From: Naegleria gruberi
Lineage: Eukaryota
Length of the DNA: 64,000 nucleotides
Reading direction: 5' to 3' (one strand)
Assembly (NCBI GenBank): GCA_000004985.1
Contig: GG738934.1
Below are positions 39,001 to 51,000 of the stretch, in pieces. The stretch's first letter is position 1; each line of letters starts with the position of its first letter. A program made the position numbers.

Positions 39001-42000
39001 TTAAGCGATTTTTATGCCGACAGAAAACCTTTAAATTCATTACAATGATTACTCAGGTTGATGCACATTTTTCGTTTCTTATGTAATTCTTGAGAGATGG
39101 TTTAACAATGGAGGAGCATAAAATATTGATTCCTCCATACTTGTTTCCAGTAAACATCTTTCATGAGTGTATTATCGAAAATAAGCATAACTGAAAGGTC
39201 TATGTTGTGGAGCCTTAATACCTTAACAAGAAGCGTCGATGGTTTAGTGGTAGAATACGGCGTTGCCATCGCCGTGACCAGGGTTCAATTGTATGTTCAA
39301 TTCCCGGTCGACGCAATCATTTCTTTTTAATTTTCCTCTTTTTAATATTCTCTTTTACTTCTGTTTACCATAAAAACTATACATTTATTCCTATCTATCA
39401 TCCAAAAATTGCAGCCTATAACTCAATATTAATCGAGAATTAGTCCTCAGGTTGACCCCATTTTTTTCTTTTCTTTTAAGTTTTTAAGTTGCATTTTATT
39501 TTATTGACATAAATTAGGAATTGGAAATCAAGCAGTTTCTTCTTGAATTGTTGGGGAAAGTGAATCGTCATGTTTTGTTCTACTAAACGAAAGACAATCA
39601 CTCGGATTAATGACATAGGTTTGCATGGTTCCCTTTCCTTTCACTTCAATGCGTCTTTCCTCAAAGGCTGAATATTTTTCCTTTAGTTTCGAATAAACTA
39701 CATCAGTAACTTGAATATGACCTGTTGGACACAAGTATTCCATTCTTGAAGCCGTCTATTTAAAATATTAGCATTACAATTCAGAATTTCAATAACTTAC
39801 ATTCACAGCATCTCCCCAAATATCATAGGCATATTTCAATACTCCGCAAACTCCCGCAACCAAAGGTCCTGCATTAATTCCTGCCCTTAATCCAATATTC
39901 CAATTACGATGTTCATTTCTCAATTGGAAATCATTAAATATTTCGAATAGATTCAAAGCAAATTCGAAAACCCTCAATTCATGTTCTTCATCTTTCATTT
40001 CATTCGCTTTTAGTCCGCCAGTGCAAAAATATTTCGATTGAATTGTTTTGATTTTTTCCAAATTGAATCTGACACATGCCTCATCGAATTGCATGACAAG
40101 ATCATTAAGGTTTTGAACTAGGTCAGTGGCACTTAATCCTAAATCTAATAATCCAACTATGTCAGAAAAAATACATGTCACATGATCGAACTTGTCAGCA
40201 ATCAAATTTTCACCACCTTCTTGTAATCTCTTTGCAACACTATAAGGCATGATATTCATCAATAAAGCTTCACTCTTCTTCTTCTGTTCTGCTAATTCCT
40301 TAACTTGCATTTTAATTTCTGTCAAATCTCTGATAAAACAAGTAATGACATTTCTACTATCTGTAACCGAAACACAAATTCTCATTTCAACTGAAACAGT
40401 TGCTAAATTCTTTCTAACACCAACCAATTCCAATGTTTCTGAATAGCCAGAGCTTGCCATACTCATCTGAGTAATGATTGGTTGTAAACTTGCTTCTGAA
40501 CTCTTATCGAATAGTTTCACCAATGGGAAACCTATCATTTGATCTGATCTGAACCCAAATAACTTTTCAGATGCATTATTGAAAATATCGATGGTTCCAT
40601 TTGCAGAACAGACAATGGCACTTGTTAAGGCAGCTTCAAGAATGGCCCTTTCTTTCGGTACCTTTCGTTTTGATTTCTCTTTTGGATCAGTTTTAAGAAT
40701 GTGATGGAAAATGTAATTTCTCAAATCGTCATTCGAATCCAACACTTCCCAATGGAGATAATTCAACATTTTCCTCAACACATAATTTTCATTTCGAACA
40801 TTCTTCATTGTCATGAAATTCAACATGTAGCAAAGTAATAATAATGGAATTCCCACAACTGTTCCAATTATGGTAAAGTATGGCTGTGAATTAAAGTAGG
40901 CATAGTACAAAATTTCGTTCAGAGAACCGAATGTTCCATATAAATCATAAGCAGTCAAATACAGAAATTCTGGAATTTTGTTCAAATCTGAAACTGTTCC
41001 ATTGTAAACTCGAAGAATTTCATTTAGCTTTACAGCTTGAGCTCTAAAGAAACCAACCTTATCATCCATTGAATTACAAGAGAAAGTTGAGCAATTTGAA
41101 GATGTCTTTCCAAGTAAATTGTCAAGATTTGAATTAACTCCGCTCAAGCTCAAATAACCATCTACAGAACTTCCATATCTGGTAGCTGTCCAATGAGTAT
41201 CGAAGGAAGTAATGTGATCAAGAAGAAGTTTGGATCGTTCTTCTCTGAATGTCTGGTTATCGAGATGTAATACCATTTGGAAGATGTCATATCTTATTTG
41301 TTGTTCATAACTCATGGCATATGACATTTCTCTTAATTTGACAACACCATAAGTGTGAGCTTGAAAATCTGTAAAAACATCAGCTATAATCATAGATAAT
41401 GCAACACAAGTAACCAAAATTGAAAAGATATCCAAGAATATTAACTTGGTGACAGATGTGAAAAGTGACTTGGTTGAACTTTTGACATCTTGTTCTTCGC
41501 CAACAACCTTTTCCATAGTAGTGATGAGAAATCTTGACTCTTCTTGTGGTACTTGATGAAACAATCTCAAAATTAACTTTCTATTGTAAATAAATCTTAA
41601 TAGGAATAATGAGTGAACTATCGAATAAACCAAAAAGGAAAAGAATATAAAAACCACAACAATTATAAAGTCATTTGTAGTGCTATTCAAATCACTATAT
41701 AAATATTTGTAAATATCTTCAAAAAACTGTGCAAATCCATTCGACATTCTCTCCACATTATTCCCTAAAAAGGTAAATTGTGAATTATCCAATGAAATCT
41801 TATCACTCGACTTGGTCTGATTAATTAAATCAACAAGTGTCAAGAGTAACATTTTGTTTCTCTTTGCAATCCAATTAGTTGACGTATACTTCCAACTCCC
41901 GCTCTCATCATCCACTAAAATCAACTTATCCTCCGCATTGTAATACTCAACCACAGTATCATCATATTGAGTGGAAAATAATTCATTCAAATTCTCCAAT

Positions 42001-48000: not shown

Positions 48001-51000
48001 ATTATAATTTTTGAAATTAAATTATCATTCGTGTAAAGTGATGGAATCTAAGGGAGTACCAGGAAGAATTCAAGCATCAAGAAAGACCTATGAAAGAGTA
48101 TATGATATTTTCGAATTTGAGGAAATCAAGGGAATTGAACTAAAACCATCAGTGCTCGTAAATACCTACTTACTCAAAGAGAAGCATCATGACATTAATA
48201 CAAACTTTAGTGATGGATTTGATAAAATGTTTGCAGGTCTCAATATGTTCAGTCCAAAAACCTATAACTTTTCCAAGATCATTCAAGACCGCTCTCTCAT
48301 TCAAGGATTCAAGGATTTCTTCACAGACTCTGAAAAGGTGAATATCATTAACTTTTACGAGTTGTGTCAAGAGTATGTGAGCTCTCCAATTCCAAGTCTT
48401 CGTTATAATATGGCAGAGAATATGGTAAGAGATTACCTTGAAGAAACTGCTCCCAAAAGATTGCAATTAAAGTATGTGAAGAATGCTTTTGGCCCATTTC
48501 AAATGAAATTCAAGGACTGTAATGATGATAATTGTCCTTCTGATTTATTTGAGAACTTCCAAAACCTATGTCTCAAAGTAAGTATTATTATTGTTGTTGT
48601 TCATCCAATCATTACAATTACTGTTGTACAATATTATAATATAACAATAATCCTTTTAAAGGCATTACGAGAAGAATTTCCAGCATTCATCAAGTCGAAG
48701 AATTTCAATAAGTTCTTGGAGCAAAAGAAACGTAACCCAGAACAGCTGAGACCTTATGTGAAGGATGAAAATGATGATGATGATGAGGATGATGAGAAGG
48801 CCTTCTTCAAGTTTTGTGAAAAGTGTGGAACTGAAATTATCAATTTGGAAAACCACCGTTTCAATGATTATGAATTTAACAATAGAAAGGAACTCTTGTT
48901 AGAGTTGAATCAGTGGAGTATTCACTTTGAGGGTAGTGGTGGTAAGACCTATATCAGTCCTGAGGTTGCTCACAACCATTTGAGTAATAGTAGAAGGCAC
49001 GTTCAACTCAAGTATGTGTACGATATGAATTGCAAACACAAGGACCTTTTCAATGCTTGGATTGATGAAAAATCCCTCTCAACACGAGTAGCACAATTAA
49101 CCTCCTCCAAACATGTTGATTCTGTACAGGTTGGAAAGTACATGCACGTGGTTTGTCATGAAAACTTCAAGATGCCCTTCCCACGCTCCAAGAGAGAATT
49201 TGTTCATGCCTATTCTTGTTCTTACAATCCAAGTGAAGAAGTCTACATGTGTATATCACGTAGTATTAACAATCCGAGAGCACCTCCATCAAGACAAATT
49301 CGTGGAGAAATCAAGACTGCCTTCATGGTCAAAAAGTTGTCTGAAACCACTTGTAGATATTACTATTCTGTTATTATTGATTGCATGGGAATGCTCTCAC
49401 CAGAGTATTATACCAAGAATATTTACAAGGAAATTCAACAAGATTGTTTCCATGTCAATTTGGTTAAATTTGTTGATGAATTTGCAAAGGAAAATCGACA
49501 ACCTTCCGGACCATTGGTAAATTCACTCAATTATTATTTGGAACATCATGATAGTAGTAAATAAATAGCTTATTATTTTGTTATTAGTTTCCTGTTGTTG
49601 TTATGATGAGGATAGCTTATTGTTATGTTATTAGTTTTCCTGTTGTTTCCATCATTGCATGTGATGAGGTGGCAACGATATTTTTTTTATTATTAAAAAA
49701 ATTGTGGACAGTTTTACCGTTATCGAATATTTACCTTCATCCCGAACTACAACATGCTCATCATGATAAATATTATAATTATTATTGGGTATCGGATGTA
49801 AAAACAAACAACTTGAAAATGTGCTTCATAATCATCATAGATATGCTAATGTACAAAAATGTTTCGCGTTTTACATTTCGATATTAAAATCAGCGGAATT
49901 ATTTCCACATAAAGACAAAAAAACAACACAAAAAAACCATTCAATACTAGCACTGCTGGATTAATCATCATTCGAAAGGTTTGACACTCATTGCTTTACA
50001 AAAAACCTTTCGAATTTTTCAAAATGGTCTTTGGAAACAATAATTCATCATCACCGAATGATATTTCACCTAGGAATAGACGATTCGTATTTCAACAAGC
50101 TACTACAACACACCATCATCATAATCATCATCATCACCATCATGGTGGTCATCATCACGAACAAGAAGATGATTCATTGGTTGCGAGTGGAGAATTGGTG
50201 ATGAGACAGAATGGATTTTTTGGTAGATGGAAAAAGTAAGTAAAATCTCCTTTACATGTGATTAGTTTACTTTCGTTCATTCACATGACTATTTGAAATG
50301 TTCATTTCTTTTGGTGTTGTCCAACTCTTAGATTCTTCTTTACACTAACAAAGGATGGAGCTTTTGTTAAATTCAAAACCTCTGATTTTCACACACCCAT
50401 GCAAACATACTTTCTAATATATTCACACAATTTAGTTTGTGACGGGCACAAAAACGACAAGTACAATATGGTGACAACAGAGGCTGCATTTGAATCACCC
50501 ACACTTCCTCAACCAGCTAATAATTTATGTGGAAAATCGAATAGTATGCTCTTGTTTGTGGAAAATTCAGTGGCAGAAAAGGAAACTCTTGTTGTGGTGG
50601 CTCCTTCTGCTGATCAGTACAATATGTGGATGAGAGCTTTTGAAATTGTATTTGAAAATGCAAAATATGAAATGACAGTTAGTACCATGATTGATGGTAC
50701 ATCCTCATCATCAGATTCTGGATCATCTTTCACAAGTCATGAATCATATCATTCAGATAAGCAAATTACATTTGATATTTACAAGAAGGGATTGAAGATT
50801 TCAAATTTAATTGATGCCATGACAGATCCTACTGTCATTGCAAATGATAAGGGAATAATTATAGGTGTAAATGGTGCAGCAGAGGCAATGTTTGAGTGGA
50901 AACATATTGAACTGATAGGAGAGAATGTCAAAGTTCTCATGCCAACAGTATTTGCCAAATATCATGACGAGTTTATCAATAATTACAAAAAGACGAGAAA

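What the first reader, a model, noticed from the sequence alone, without database searches (positions are those of the whole stretch)
39528..49564. Head-to-head pair of paralogous multi-TM receptor cyclases sharing a short divergent spacer
The two cyclase genes start only about 325 bp apart on opposite strands (ATG 44579 minus; ATG 44905 plus, then a 50-N gap) and are collinear in their TM-loop-TM-PAS-cyclase parts. That is an inverted tandem duplication with a putative bidirectional promoter. The minus-strand copy has a long additional N-terminal block of about 8 TM that is not visible in the plus copy, whose N-terminus may sit in the gap. That copy ends right after the cyclase domain, while the plus copy is extended by the RGS-like and START domains.
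Basis: seen in the sequence. Interest (0 to 1): 0.55.

Follow-up and report, generated by a model that had tools for sequence, protein, structure and literature searches.

The report
Divergent pair of complementary half-site cyclases
Two neighbouring, oppositely oriented Naegleria gruberi genes encode distantly related membrane receptor cyclases whose catalytic defects are complementary, so they may work only as a mixed dimer; they are not a recent duplication, and the 325-bp spacer rests on an assembly gap.

Summary
The window is Naegleria gruberi. Gene A (minus strand, 44579..39528, one intron, 1668 aa) and gene B (plus strand, visible 44959..49564, four introns, two 50-N gaps) share one plan: helical domain, TM-loop-TM-TM-loop-TM, PAS, class III cyclase. 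B alone adds an RGS domain and a START-fold tail.

Three parts of the interpretation fail or need changing.
- ATG 44905 is not B's start. Relatives of B continue upstream into the same roughly 8-TM block that A has, so B's 5' end lies in the gap and the spacer length is unknown (at least 328 bp).
- The pair is not a recent inverted duplication. A is the family member least like B. A's closest relative found is in Willaertia; B's are an N. gruberi paralog elsewhere and N. fowleri genes.
- Five related loci in N. fowleri and Willaertia have no divergent partner cyclase.

New result: A lacks the second metal-binding Asp and resembles the mammalian C2 domain. B keeps both Asp but lacks the transition-state Asn and Arg and resembles C1. 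I infer, without proof, a heterodimer with one active site, as in chytrid NeoR/RGC pairs, which are also divergently encoded.

The parts
39801..44579 (-). Gene A, exon 1 (codons 1-1593). Start ATG at 44579-44577.
   Evidence: ORF. 100% identical to the N. gruberi predicted protein P0001.
39756..39800 (-). Gene A intron (45 bp, GTAAGT..TAG), inside the cyclase domain after '...GDAVN'.
   Evidence: Removing it restores the conserved TASRME..KGKG end of the domain.
39528..39755 (-). Gene A, exon 2 with stop codon (39530-39528). Total 1668 aa.
43143..44030 (-). Gene A N-terminal membrane block, 8 hydrophobic segments (aa 184-479).
   Evidence: Hydropathy. Homologous to the N-terminal blocks of Willaertia P0021 and P0017 (39%, E 1e-73 to 1e-79) and of N. 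fowleri relatives of B.
42228..43142 (-). Gene A cytosolic helical domain (aa 480-784). It corresponds to the TPR_TmcB region of relatives.
   Evidence: It aligns with relatives that carry PF25474. A itself has no Pfam hit.
40821..42227 (-). Gene A sensor module: TM, about 170-aa loop, TM, TM, about 170-aa loop, TM (aa 785-1253).
   Evidence: Aligns end to end with P0016, P0031 and P0017 (E 1e-29 to 1e-30).
40317..40649 (-). Gene A PAS domain (aa 1311-1421).
   Evidence: Pfam PAS_9, E 1.9e-12.
39606..40199 (-). Gene A class III cyclase domain (aa 1461-1643, spans the intron). C2-like: FSDIVG, IKTIQSKY (second metal Asp replaced by Ser), YDIWGDAVNTASRM, KGKG.
   Evidence: Pfam E 1.7e-40. Scores 103.5 bits against AC9 C2 and 66.3 against C1. 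Alignment.
44580..44907 (.). Sequence between A's start codon and the assembly gap: the visible part of the divergent spacer. No plus-strand ORF longer than about 20 codons.
   Evidence: No match to any relative's N-terminal block.
44908..44957 (.). Assembly gap (50 N, nominal size). Expected to hide B's 5' end, including the N-terminal TM block (about 1.2-1.6 kb if B is like its relatives).
44959..47114 (+). Gene B, visible first coding stretch (718 codons). Helical domain 44959-45690. TM helices at 45691-45747, 46255-46311, 46456-46512 and 46972-47028. Loops at 45748-46254 and 46513-46971.
   Evidence: HMMER hits to 13 heterolobosean proteins. AF2 model of aa 230-718 with pLDDT 80.9, helical bundles.
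47115..47164 (.). Second assembly gap, inside gene B. Hides about 70 codons (linker after the last TM and the first half of PAS).
   Evidence: Comparison with P0011 and P0024. The Pfam PAS_9 match covers only profile positions 51-102.
47165..47374 (+). Gene B exon: second half of PAS.
47450..47853 (+). Gene B exon: cyclase transducer helix and the first part of the cyclase domain (FSDMVGFT, IKTIGDAYFC).
   Evidence: Introns 47375-47449 and 47854-47896 (GT..AG). Pfam E 1.9e-49.
47897..47991 (+). Gene B exon: middle of the cyclase domain.
48039..48577 (+). Gene B exon: end of the cyclase domain ([16 protein letters not shown], with Asn replaced by Ile and Arg by Leu; KPSV in place of KGKG) and most of the RGS domain. 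The cyclase domain as a whole spans 47555-48178 and is C1-like.
   Evidence: Scores 116.5 bits against AC9 C1 and 93.3 against C2. RGS Pfam 36.5 bits. Profile hit to RGS5, E 4.5e-4.
48662..49564 (+). Gene B last exon: end of RGS, an acidic linker, the START-fold domain (about 48902-49561), and the stop codon 49562-49564.
   Evidence: Intron 48578-48661. AF2 pLDDT 66.8. Foldseek PDB hits STARD10 at 1.2e-9, also CERT and STARD4. Pfam START on the N. fowleri relatives.

Best explanation
SHOWN:
- The locus holds two intact-looking genes of a heterolobosean family of membrane receptor cyclases. The family plan is an N-terminal block of about 8 TM helices, a helical TPR_TmcB-type cytosolic domain, TM-loop-TM-TM-loop-TM with helical-bundle ectodomains, PAS, and a class III cyclase.
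- As assembled, the two genes lie back to back and would be transcribed divergently.
- They are old paralogs from different subfamilies.
- Gene A has lost the second metal-binding Asp (IGDAY has become IQSKY). It keeps the substrate Lys and Asp, the transition-state Asn and Arg, and the KGKG motif. It resembles mammalian C2.
- Gene B keeps both metal Asp residues. It has lost Asn (now Ile), Arg (now Leu) and KGKG. It resembles mammalian C1, and it adds an RGS domain and a START-fold domain.
- B's true 5' end, most likely including the 8-TM block, is missing in an assembly gap.

INFERRED:
- Neither protein can form a complete catalytic site as a homodimer.
- An A/B heterodimer would have one competent site (B's two Asp plus A's Lys, Asp, Asn, Arg and Lys) and one dead site. 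That is the design of membrane adenylyl cyclase C1/C2.
- The substrate residues are Lys and Asp, so the product would be cAMP.
- Divergent transcription from the shared upstream region would help make the two subunits together.
- Signals would enter through the two ectodomains and the two PAS domains. B's tail could add G-alpha input through RGS and lipid input through START.
- Whether A's partner really is B, and not another C1-like paralog, is the weakest step.
For: - Organism and gene models.
- Family and architecture.
- Homology of the membrane modules: direct SW score 179 against shuffles of 51-61. Also via intermediates that align end to end with both proteins.
- Catalytic residues: alignment.
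- A matches AC9 C2 better (103.5 vs 66.3 bits). B matches C1 better (116.5 vs 93.3 bits).
- The same split runs through the family. C1-minus-C2 score is -28 for A and -7 for P0021, +17 to +34 for the B type, and +8 for a complete type.
- The IQxKY change is shared by A and Willaertia P0021. The IA(N/Q)LMES change is shared by B and N. fowleri P0024 and P0028. Both are therefore conserved states, not sequencing errors.
- Experimental precedent: Rv1625c D300A and R376A are each inactive and complement each other in a dimer (Guo et al. 2001, as described in PMC4821796). These are the positions changed in A and in B respectively, by my numbering from memory.
- Genomic precedent: chytrid NeoR and RGC(a) are obligate heterodimeric cyclases encoded side by side on opposite strands (PMC10622942; PMC8815786).
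Against: - The adjacency is not conserved. Five related loci have no cyclase as a divergent neighbour: N. fowleri L002 and L003, Willaertia L004, L005 and L006.
- Naegleria carries at least 81 cyclases (PMC9928731), so an adjacent pair can arise by chance.
- At least three C1-like members exist in N. gruberi (B, P0011, P0031), as do members with a complete site (P0022). A and B therefore have alternative partners.
- A keeps the first metal Asp, so residual homodimer activity cannot be excluded.
- There are no expression or interaction data.
- The order of the genes rests on a scaffold join across a gap.
- My family sample was retrieved with B as the query and is biased.
Confidence: 0.5

Rival explanations
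1. Chance or historical neighbours. Two members of a very large cyclase family happen to sit side by side. Each pairs with other paralogs, or acts as a regulatory pseudo-enzyme. The divergent arrangement has no functional meaning.
For: - Naegleria has at least 81 cyclases.
- Five related loci show no such pairing.
- The window flanks show no microsynteny with those loci.
- Divergent ORF pairs 130-320 bp apart are ordinary in this window.
- Several alternative C1-like and complete-site partners exist.
Against: - Of the two cyclase genes in 64 kb, one is the rarer C2-like type and the other the C1-like type. That is the combination needed for one competent site.
- The same genomic layout is used by proven heterodimeric cyclases in chytrids.
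Confidence: 0.35
2. A recent inverted tandem duplication produced two equivalent, independently active homodimeric receptor cyclases that share a 325-bp bidirectional promoter.
For: The genes have opposite orientation, close proximity and a collinear domain order.
Against: - A is the least similar family member to B: 36% identity in the cyclase against 49-73% for all others.
- Their nearest relatives lie in other genera or on other scaffolds.
- Intron positions differ.
- Each lacks residues required for catalysis in a homodimer.
- ATG 44905 is not B's start.
Confidence: 0.05
3. Assembly artefact. The 50-N join at 44908-44957 links two contigs that are not neighbours, or are in the wrong orientation, so the head-to-head arrangement does not exist.
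For: - B's 5' end, 1 kb or more of expected coding sequence, is absent from the window.
- A second 50-N gap in the same gene hides about 210 bp.
- So gap sizes here are nominal, and this stretch assembled poorly.
Against: - Scaffolds of this kind are normally built from read pairs.
- The contig right of the gap begins inside gene B, pointing away from A, as expected if only B's 5' part is missing.
- Nothing in the data indicates a misjoin.
Confidence: 0.07

Closest known systems
Chytrid heterodimeric rhodopsin-guanylyl cyclases (NeoR + RGC1/RGC2, also called RGC(a))
   Same: - Two separate membrane-sensor cyclase polypeptides that are active only as a heterodimer.
- Their genes lie next to each other on opposite strands, and the authors propose bidirectional transcription (PMC10622942, PMC8815786).
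- One subunit's cyclase is inactive on its own.
   Different: - The sensor there is an 8-TM rhodopsin. Here it is an 8-TM block of unknown function plus a 4-TM, two-ectodomain module plus PAS.
- The chytrid product is cGMP. Here the substrate residues are Lys and Asp, which is adenylate-type.
- The chytrid pair is a monophyletic, conserved duplication. A and B are deep paralogs, and the arrangement was not found in five related loci.
- RGC1 and RGC2 keep all catalytic residues. Here both partners are degenerate.
- Heterodimerisation is proven there and only inferred here.
Mammalian membrane adenylyl cyclases (C1/C2 pseudo-heterodimer, e.g. AC9, AC5/AC2 domains)
   Same: - B resembles C1: both metal Asp present, Arg position Leu, and the same ANLME motif.
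- A resembles C2: second metal Asp lost; Lys, Asp, Asn, Arg and KGKG kept; an insert after the GGL motif.
- One competent and one degenerate site are predicted.
- A cyclase transducer helix precedes both domains.
   Different: - C1 and C2 sit on one polypeptide with two 6-TM bundles. Here they are on two polypeptides with a different, larger membrane part and a PAS domain.
- A keeps the first metal Asp, which C2 has lost.
- AC9 C1 keeps the Asn, which B has lost.
- The resemblance may be convergent.
Mycobacterium tuberculosis Rv1625c complementing mutants (D300A + R376A)
   Same: Loss of the second metal Asp in one protomer and of the transition-state Arg in the other gives two inactive homodimers and an active mixed dimer (Guo et al. 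2001, as described in PMC4821796). A carries the first kind of change and B the second.
   Different: Those are engineered point mutants of one homodimeric bacterial enzyme. Here the changes are natural and conserved across genera, and they come with further differences (KGKG, Asn).
Soluble guanylyl cyclase alpha/beta
   Same: An obligate heterodimer of two paralogous single-domain class III subunits, each with a PAS-type domain and a coiled-coil helix before the cyclase. B2 gives a weak HNOBA hit, and both alpha and beta chains are matched.
   Different: sGC is soluble, senses through haem-NO, and makes cGMP. It has no membrane module and no RGS or START domain.
N. gruberi 'membrane bound adenylate/guanylate cyclase with PAS domain' (P0022, XP_002674931) and its relatives in N. 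fowleri and Willaertia magna
   Same: This is the family to which A and B belong. The architecture is the same and the proteins align end to end.
   Different: P0022, the second cyclase in N. fowleri L002, and Willaertia P0023 keep all catalytic residues. A and B each lack a different subset.

Membership tests
Class III nucleotidyl cyclase (Pfam PF00211) | Significant match to the catalytic domain profile | tested here: met
   A: 139 bits, E 1.7e-40. B: 168 bits, E 1.9e-49. Cut-off 21.9 bits.
Class III nucleotidyl cyclase (Pfam PF00211) | Both metal-binding Asp residues (FxDIxGF and IGDxY) | tested here: not met
   A has Asp at the first position and Ser at the second (IQSKY), so it fails. B has both Asp and passes. 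Which residues are catalytic comes from established knowledge (Tesmer et al. 1999; Linder and Schultz), recalled from memory.
Class III nucleotidyl cyclase (Pfam PF00211) | Transition-state Asn and Arg (xVNxASRM) | tested here: not met
   B has Ile and Leu (ETLIIANLMES), so it fails. A has Asn and Arg (DAVNTASRM) and passes.
Class III nucleotidyl cyclase (Pfam PF00211) | Substrate-defining pair (Lys and Asp for ATP; Glu and Cys for GTP) | tested here: met
   Both proteins have Lys (EKIKTI) and Asp (YDxWG), which is adenylate-type.
Heterolobosean multi-TM PAS cyclases (TPR_TmcB-type) | End-to-end alignment with family members across helical domain, 4 TM with 2 loops, PAS and cyclase | tested here: met
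   B1 against P0011, P0024, P0031 and P0017: E 1e-146 to 1e-44 over about 700 aa. A's middle part against P0016, P0031 and P0017: E about 1e-29 over about 800 aa.
Heterolobosean multi-TM PAS cyclases (TPR_TmcB-type) | N-terminal block of about 8 TM helices | tested here: inconclusive
   A has it. For B it is not in the assembled sequence. A contig 76% identical to B and the N. fowleri relatives do have it.
Heterolobosean multi-TM PAS cyclases (TPR_TmcB-type) | Pfam PF25474 TPR_TmcB match | tested here: inconclusive
   B scores 15.9 bits, E 0.013, below the cut-off of 27. A has no hit. Relatives that align with this region carry the Pfam hit.
Obligate heterodimeric class III cyclases (tmAC C1/C2, sGC, NeoR/RGC) | Complementary degeneration of catalytic residues in the two partners | tested here: met
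Obligate heterodimeric class III cyclases (tmAC C1/C2, sGC, NeoR/RGC) | Physical heterodimer; activity only on co-expression | not testable with these tools
   Needs biochemistry.
Obligate heterodimeric class III cyclases (tmAC C1/C2, sGC, NeoR/RGC) | Conserved linkage of the two partner genes (as for NeoR/RGC(a)) | tested here: not met
   No divergent neighbouring cyclase at N. fowleri L002 and L003 or Willaertia L004, L005 and L006. The N. fowleri ortholog of A could not be located.
RGS domain (PF00615), gene B | Profile match above the curated cut-off | tested here: met
   36.5 bits against a cut-off of 23.9, E 7e-9. A family profile hits RGS5 and RGS18 in PDB. The G-alpha contact residues were not examined.
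START domain (PF01852), gene B | Sequence profile match | tested here: not met
   No Pfam hit on B's tail even at E 10. N. fowleri relatives that are 48-56% identical in the tail do hit START.
START domain (PF01852), gene B | Helix-grip fold | tested here: met
   AF2 model (pLDDT 66.8, only 4 sequences in the alignment). Foldseek hits STARD10 at E 1.2e-9, also CERT, STARD4 and STARD5, with TM-score normalised to the target of 0.6-0.67. Moderate confidence.
Recent inverted tandem duplicate | The two copies are each other's closest relatives | tested here: not met
   By BLAST ranking, A is the most distant family member from B. No formal tree was built.
Recent inverted tandem duplicate | Shared intron positions | tested here: not met
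   A has one intron, after ..AVN. B has introns before the transducer helix, after ..LNIR, and inside ..IAN/LMES. None coincides with A's.

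The most novel reading that the evidence does not exclude
A and B are the two subunits of an obligate heterodimeric receptor adenylyl cyclase. This would be a 'split' counterpart of the animal C1/C2 enzyme in an excavate amoeba, made from one divergent promoter. The C1-like subunit would additionally bring an RGS and a START domain. One enzyme would then integrate two ectodomain sensors, two PAS domains, G-alpha state and a lipid ligand. More broadly, heterolobosean cyclases would fall into C1-like, C2-like and complete classes that combine to diversify signalling.
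Probability: 0.35. Interest if true: 0.7.

Novelty: new variant of a known kind. Interest (0 to 1): 0.5.

Why it matters
Naegleria carries one of the largest cyclase repertoires known, and almost nothing is known about how those enzymes work. If many of them are half-site enzymes that must pair up, the number of signalling units and their input logic differ from what a gene count suggests.

It would also show that C1/C2-type asymmetry, known from animal adenylyl cyclases and chytrid photoreceptors, arose independently or very early in a distant eukaryotic lineage.

There are practical consequences too:
- The public gene models at this locus are wrong. A is fused to two downstream genes, and B is not modelled in what I could retrieve.
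- The 5' end of B needs gap closure before any expression construct is designed.

Tried and rejected
- The search for homologous proteins with B's membrane part and with A's membrane part returned nothing. One search should have returned P0001, which contains most of the query at 100% identity. I therefore treat both negatives as tool misses and draw no conclusion from them.
- The look-up of encoding contigs does not index N. gruberi models. I could not inspect the neighbourhood of the N. gruberi paralogs P0011, P0031 and P0022, and I could not look for a better assembly of this locus.
- I looked for B's missing N-terminal block elsewhere in the window, using tblastn with six relatives' N-termini. 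Only A's own block matched.
- A short plus-strand ORF (MNTSLLNNHHKQLQIPSTLE*, about 44806-44868) recalls the N-terminus of N. fowleri P0028. It is stopped after 20 codons and has no splice donor, so I rejected it as evidence.
- I tested whether the two TM-loop-TM halves are an internal duplication. Loop 1 against loop 2 gives z of 1.1 or less in both proteins.
- Direct A-versus-B similarity in loop 1 is undetectable (z -0.3). It is present only in loop 2 (z 6.2). Homology of the whole module rests on intermediates.
- The PAS domains contain no LOV-type NCRFL motif (by eye).
- Synteny between the window flanks and the fetched loci: none.
- Literature searches found no description of this pair or of a C1-like/C2-like split in Naegleria cyclases.

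Full report
**1. What is in the sequence.**
The window is AT-rich (about 33% GC), has short GT..AG introns and four N runs. It is Naegleria gruberi: gene A is 100% identical to an N. gruberi predicted protein.

Gene A (minus strand) runs from ATG 44579 to 39801. It is interrupted by a 45-bp intron (39800-39756) and ends at stop 39530-39528, giving 1668 aa.

Gene B (plus strand) is visible from 44959. It is interrupted by a 50-N gap at 47115-47164 and by four introns (47375-47449, 47854-47896, 47992-48038, 48578-48661). It ends at stop 49562-49564. The span given in the finding therefore matches the two stop codons exactly. No other cyclase gene is in the window.

**2. Domain plan.**
- Pfam finds PAS and Guanylate_cyc in both proteins, and RGS only in B.
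- Hydropathy gives A eight hydrophobic segments (aa 184-479). A soluble stretch of about 300 aa follows, then TM helices at 785, 971, 1047 and 1235.
- The visible part of B starts in the soluble stretch and has TM helices at 245, 433, 500 and 672. The spacing is the same as in A.
- A single local alignment path links B 12-616 to A 532-1172. It scores 179, against 51+-7 for shuffles and 61+-13 for shuffles that keep local hydrophobicity.
- Piece by piece, only loop 2 is directly similar (z 6.2). The helical domain is marginal (z 2.9) and loop 1 is not similar.
- Both proteins align end to end with the same intermediates (P0017, P0031, P0016) at E 1e-29 to 1e-49. The membrane modules are therefore homologous.
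- An AlphaFold model of B's 4-TM and two-loop module is confident (pLDDT 80.9). It shows TM helices continuing into long extracellular helical bundles with one beta hairpin.
- B's last 220 residues model as a helix-grip fold that matches START domains (STARD10 E 1.2e-9). Pfam START does not hit B itself, but it does hit the N. fowleri relatives.

**3. The family.**
An exhaustive HMMER search with B's membrane part found 13 proteins. Every hit whose source carries an organism name is heterolobosean (N. gruberi, N. fowleri, Willaertia magna). The rest are unnamed ENA, Logan or JGI contigs, and one (P0020) is named only 'uncharacterized membrane protein'. One hit is annotated 'membrane bound adenylate/guanylate cyclase with PAS domain'. 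The kind of protein is therefore already known and annotated. Relatives carry Pfam TPR_TmcB in the helical domain.

**4. B's start and the spacer.**
ATG 44905 directly abuts the N run. Its continuity with B's frame is an artefact of translating N as X.
- An ENA contig that is 76% identical to the beginning of B reads on upstream in frame into '...NTSNSLDLGLSFLLGVGVGSSIVLFIIGFVV'. This is the last helix of the N-terminal block.
- In N. fowleri, the DNA upstream of the annotated start of P0024 encodes the whole block. That block matches A's N-terminal block at E 1.6e-22.
- Nothing of the kind exists for B anywhere in the window.
- The second 50-N gap must hide about 70 codons, so '50 N' is nominal.

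I conclude that B's 5' end, probably 1.2-1.6 kb of it, lies in the gap. The distance between the two start codons is unknown. The visible 328 bp is a lower bound unless part of it belongs to B. Other divergent ORF pairs in this window are 132, 290 and 315 bp apart, so a short spacer would be ordinary for this genome.

**5. Not a recent duplication.**
- In PAS-cyclase, B is 73% identical to N. fowleri P0024 and 72% to N. gruberi P0011, which lies on a different, 1.56-Mb scaffold. It is 59-65% identical to P0017 and P0031, 49-52% to P0021 and P0022, and only 36% to A.
- A's best match is Willaertia P0021: 45% in PAS-cyclase and 39% in the N-terminal block.
- The split between the A and B lineages therefore appears older than the Naegleria/Willaertia divergence. 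This rests on similarity ranking, not on a formal tree.
- Intron positions in the cyclase domain differ.

**6. Complementary catalytic sites.**
I aligned the catalytic domains with bovine AC9 C1 and C2, whose sequences I took from the PDB alignments. The positions compared are metal Asp 1, metal Asp 2, substrate Lys, substrate Asp, Asn, Arg and the KGKG motif.

| Protein | Asp 1 | Asp 2 | Lys | Asp | Asn | Arg | KGKG |
|---|---|---|---|---|---|---|---|
| A | D | S | K | D | N | R | KGKG |
| B | D | D | K | D | I | L | KPSV |

- A scores 103.5 bits against AC9 C2 and 66.3 against C1. B scores 116.5 against C1 and 93.3 against C2.
- B even shares the ANLME motif of C1.
- The family splits three ways:
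  - C2-like: A and Willaertia P0021 (IQEKY).
  - C1-like: B, P0011, P0031, P0024, P0028 and P0017.
  - Complete: P0022, the second cyclase in N. fowleri L002, and Willaertia P0023.
- The changes are shared across genera, so they are maintained states.
- From established enzymology, the second metal Asp and the Arg are each required. In Rv1625c the D300A and R376A mutants are inactive alone and complement each other in a dimer (Guo et al. 2001, as cited in PMC4821796).

A/A and B/B dimers should therefore be dead or very weak. An A/B dimer would have exactly one competent site. This is inference from sequence.

**7. Does the arrangement mean anything?**
The closest precedent is in chytrid fungi. 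NeoR and RGC(a) are obligate heterodimeric membrane cyclases whose genes sit side by side on opposite strands, and the authors interpret this as bidirectional co-transcription (PMC10622942, PMC8815786). That makes the heterodimer reading attractive.

Several points count against it:
- Five other family loci have no divergent cyclase neighbour: two N. fowleri B-type loci, and one A-type, one C1-like and one complete-type locus in Willaertia. L002 has a complete-type cyclase 4.6 kb downstream on the same strand.
- There is no microsynteny with the window flanks.
- Naegleria has at least 81 cyclases (PMC9928731).
- A and B each have other possible partners.

My estimates are as follows. That each protein needs a complementary partner: about 0.7. 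That they are each other's partners and are co-regulated: about 0.35-0.4.

**8. Verdict.**
It is wrong about B's start and therefore about the spacer. The 'inverted tandem duplication' interpretation is not supported.

The protein family is known. The C1-like/C2-like complementarity of a divergently arranged pair, and the cyclase-RGS-START architecture, are not described in the literature I could search.

I rate it a new variant of a known kind, of moderate interest. It yields a clear and cheap experimental test: co-expression against single expression.

Noticed in passing
window 35519-44579 (minus strand): The public N. gruberi gene model P0001 (2426 aa) is a chimera. It joins gene A to the two downstream ORFs (38912-37782, weakly Peptidase_S9-like, and 37219-35519). 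It skips A's real last exon and splices out about 106 aa of A's TM block.
   Followed up: yes
window 47115-47164: A second 50-N gap lies inside gene B. It removes about 70 codons, comprising the linker and the first half of PAS. This is why the Pfam PAS match is partial, and it shows that 50 N is a placeholder length.
   Followed up: yes
window 50399-52165 (+): The ORF just downstream of B (588 aa) has a PAS domain (E 3.7e-10), Ser-rich linkers, a coiled coil, and a C-terminus that looks RGS-like by eye (no Pfam hit). It may be a third signalling gene at this locus.
   Followed up: partly
L002 9125-10000 and 10001-15312 (N. fowleri VFQX01000027.1): The annotated N. fowleri model FDP41_001639 (P0024) is truncated at its N-terminus. 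The DNA upstream encodes a start codon, about 875 bp upstream, and the missing TM helices across two short introns.
   Followed up: partly
L003 10001-15478 (N. fowleri VFQX01000058.1): One cyclase-RGS-START gene is split into two annotated models (FDP41_007269 and FDP41_007270, the latter named 'START domain-containing protein'). Another annotation (CAG4708700, 1820 aa) joins them but mis-splices the cyclase domain.
   Followed up: partly
L002 19910-25120 (N. fowleri): A second family cyclase with a complete catalytic site lies 4.6 kb downstream of the B-type gene on the same strand, with two unrelated genes between them. This is a loose cluster, not a divergent pair.
   Followed up: partly
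L001 1-17 (ENA metagenome contig k141_375157): The contig starts with GTTTCCCAGTCACGATA, which looks like a random-amplification primer rather than genome sequence. The rest of the contig is a close relative of gene B (76% aa identity) from an environmental sample.
   Followed up: no
(tool behaviour): The word-indexed protein search returned no hit for A's membrane part, although P0001 in the same database contains most of it at 100% identity. Negatives from that tool on these low-complexity, TM-rich queries are unreliable.
   Followed up: partly
window 46513-46971 and 40875-41384 (loop 2 of B and of A): Loop 2 carries a family-wide motif: W..(F/Y)R(F/Y)G ... NC(x4-6)C.GLD.L, with two nearly invariant Cys and several N-glycosylation sequons. 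This fits an extracellular, disulfide-bonded ligand-binding bundle.
   Followed up: partly
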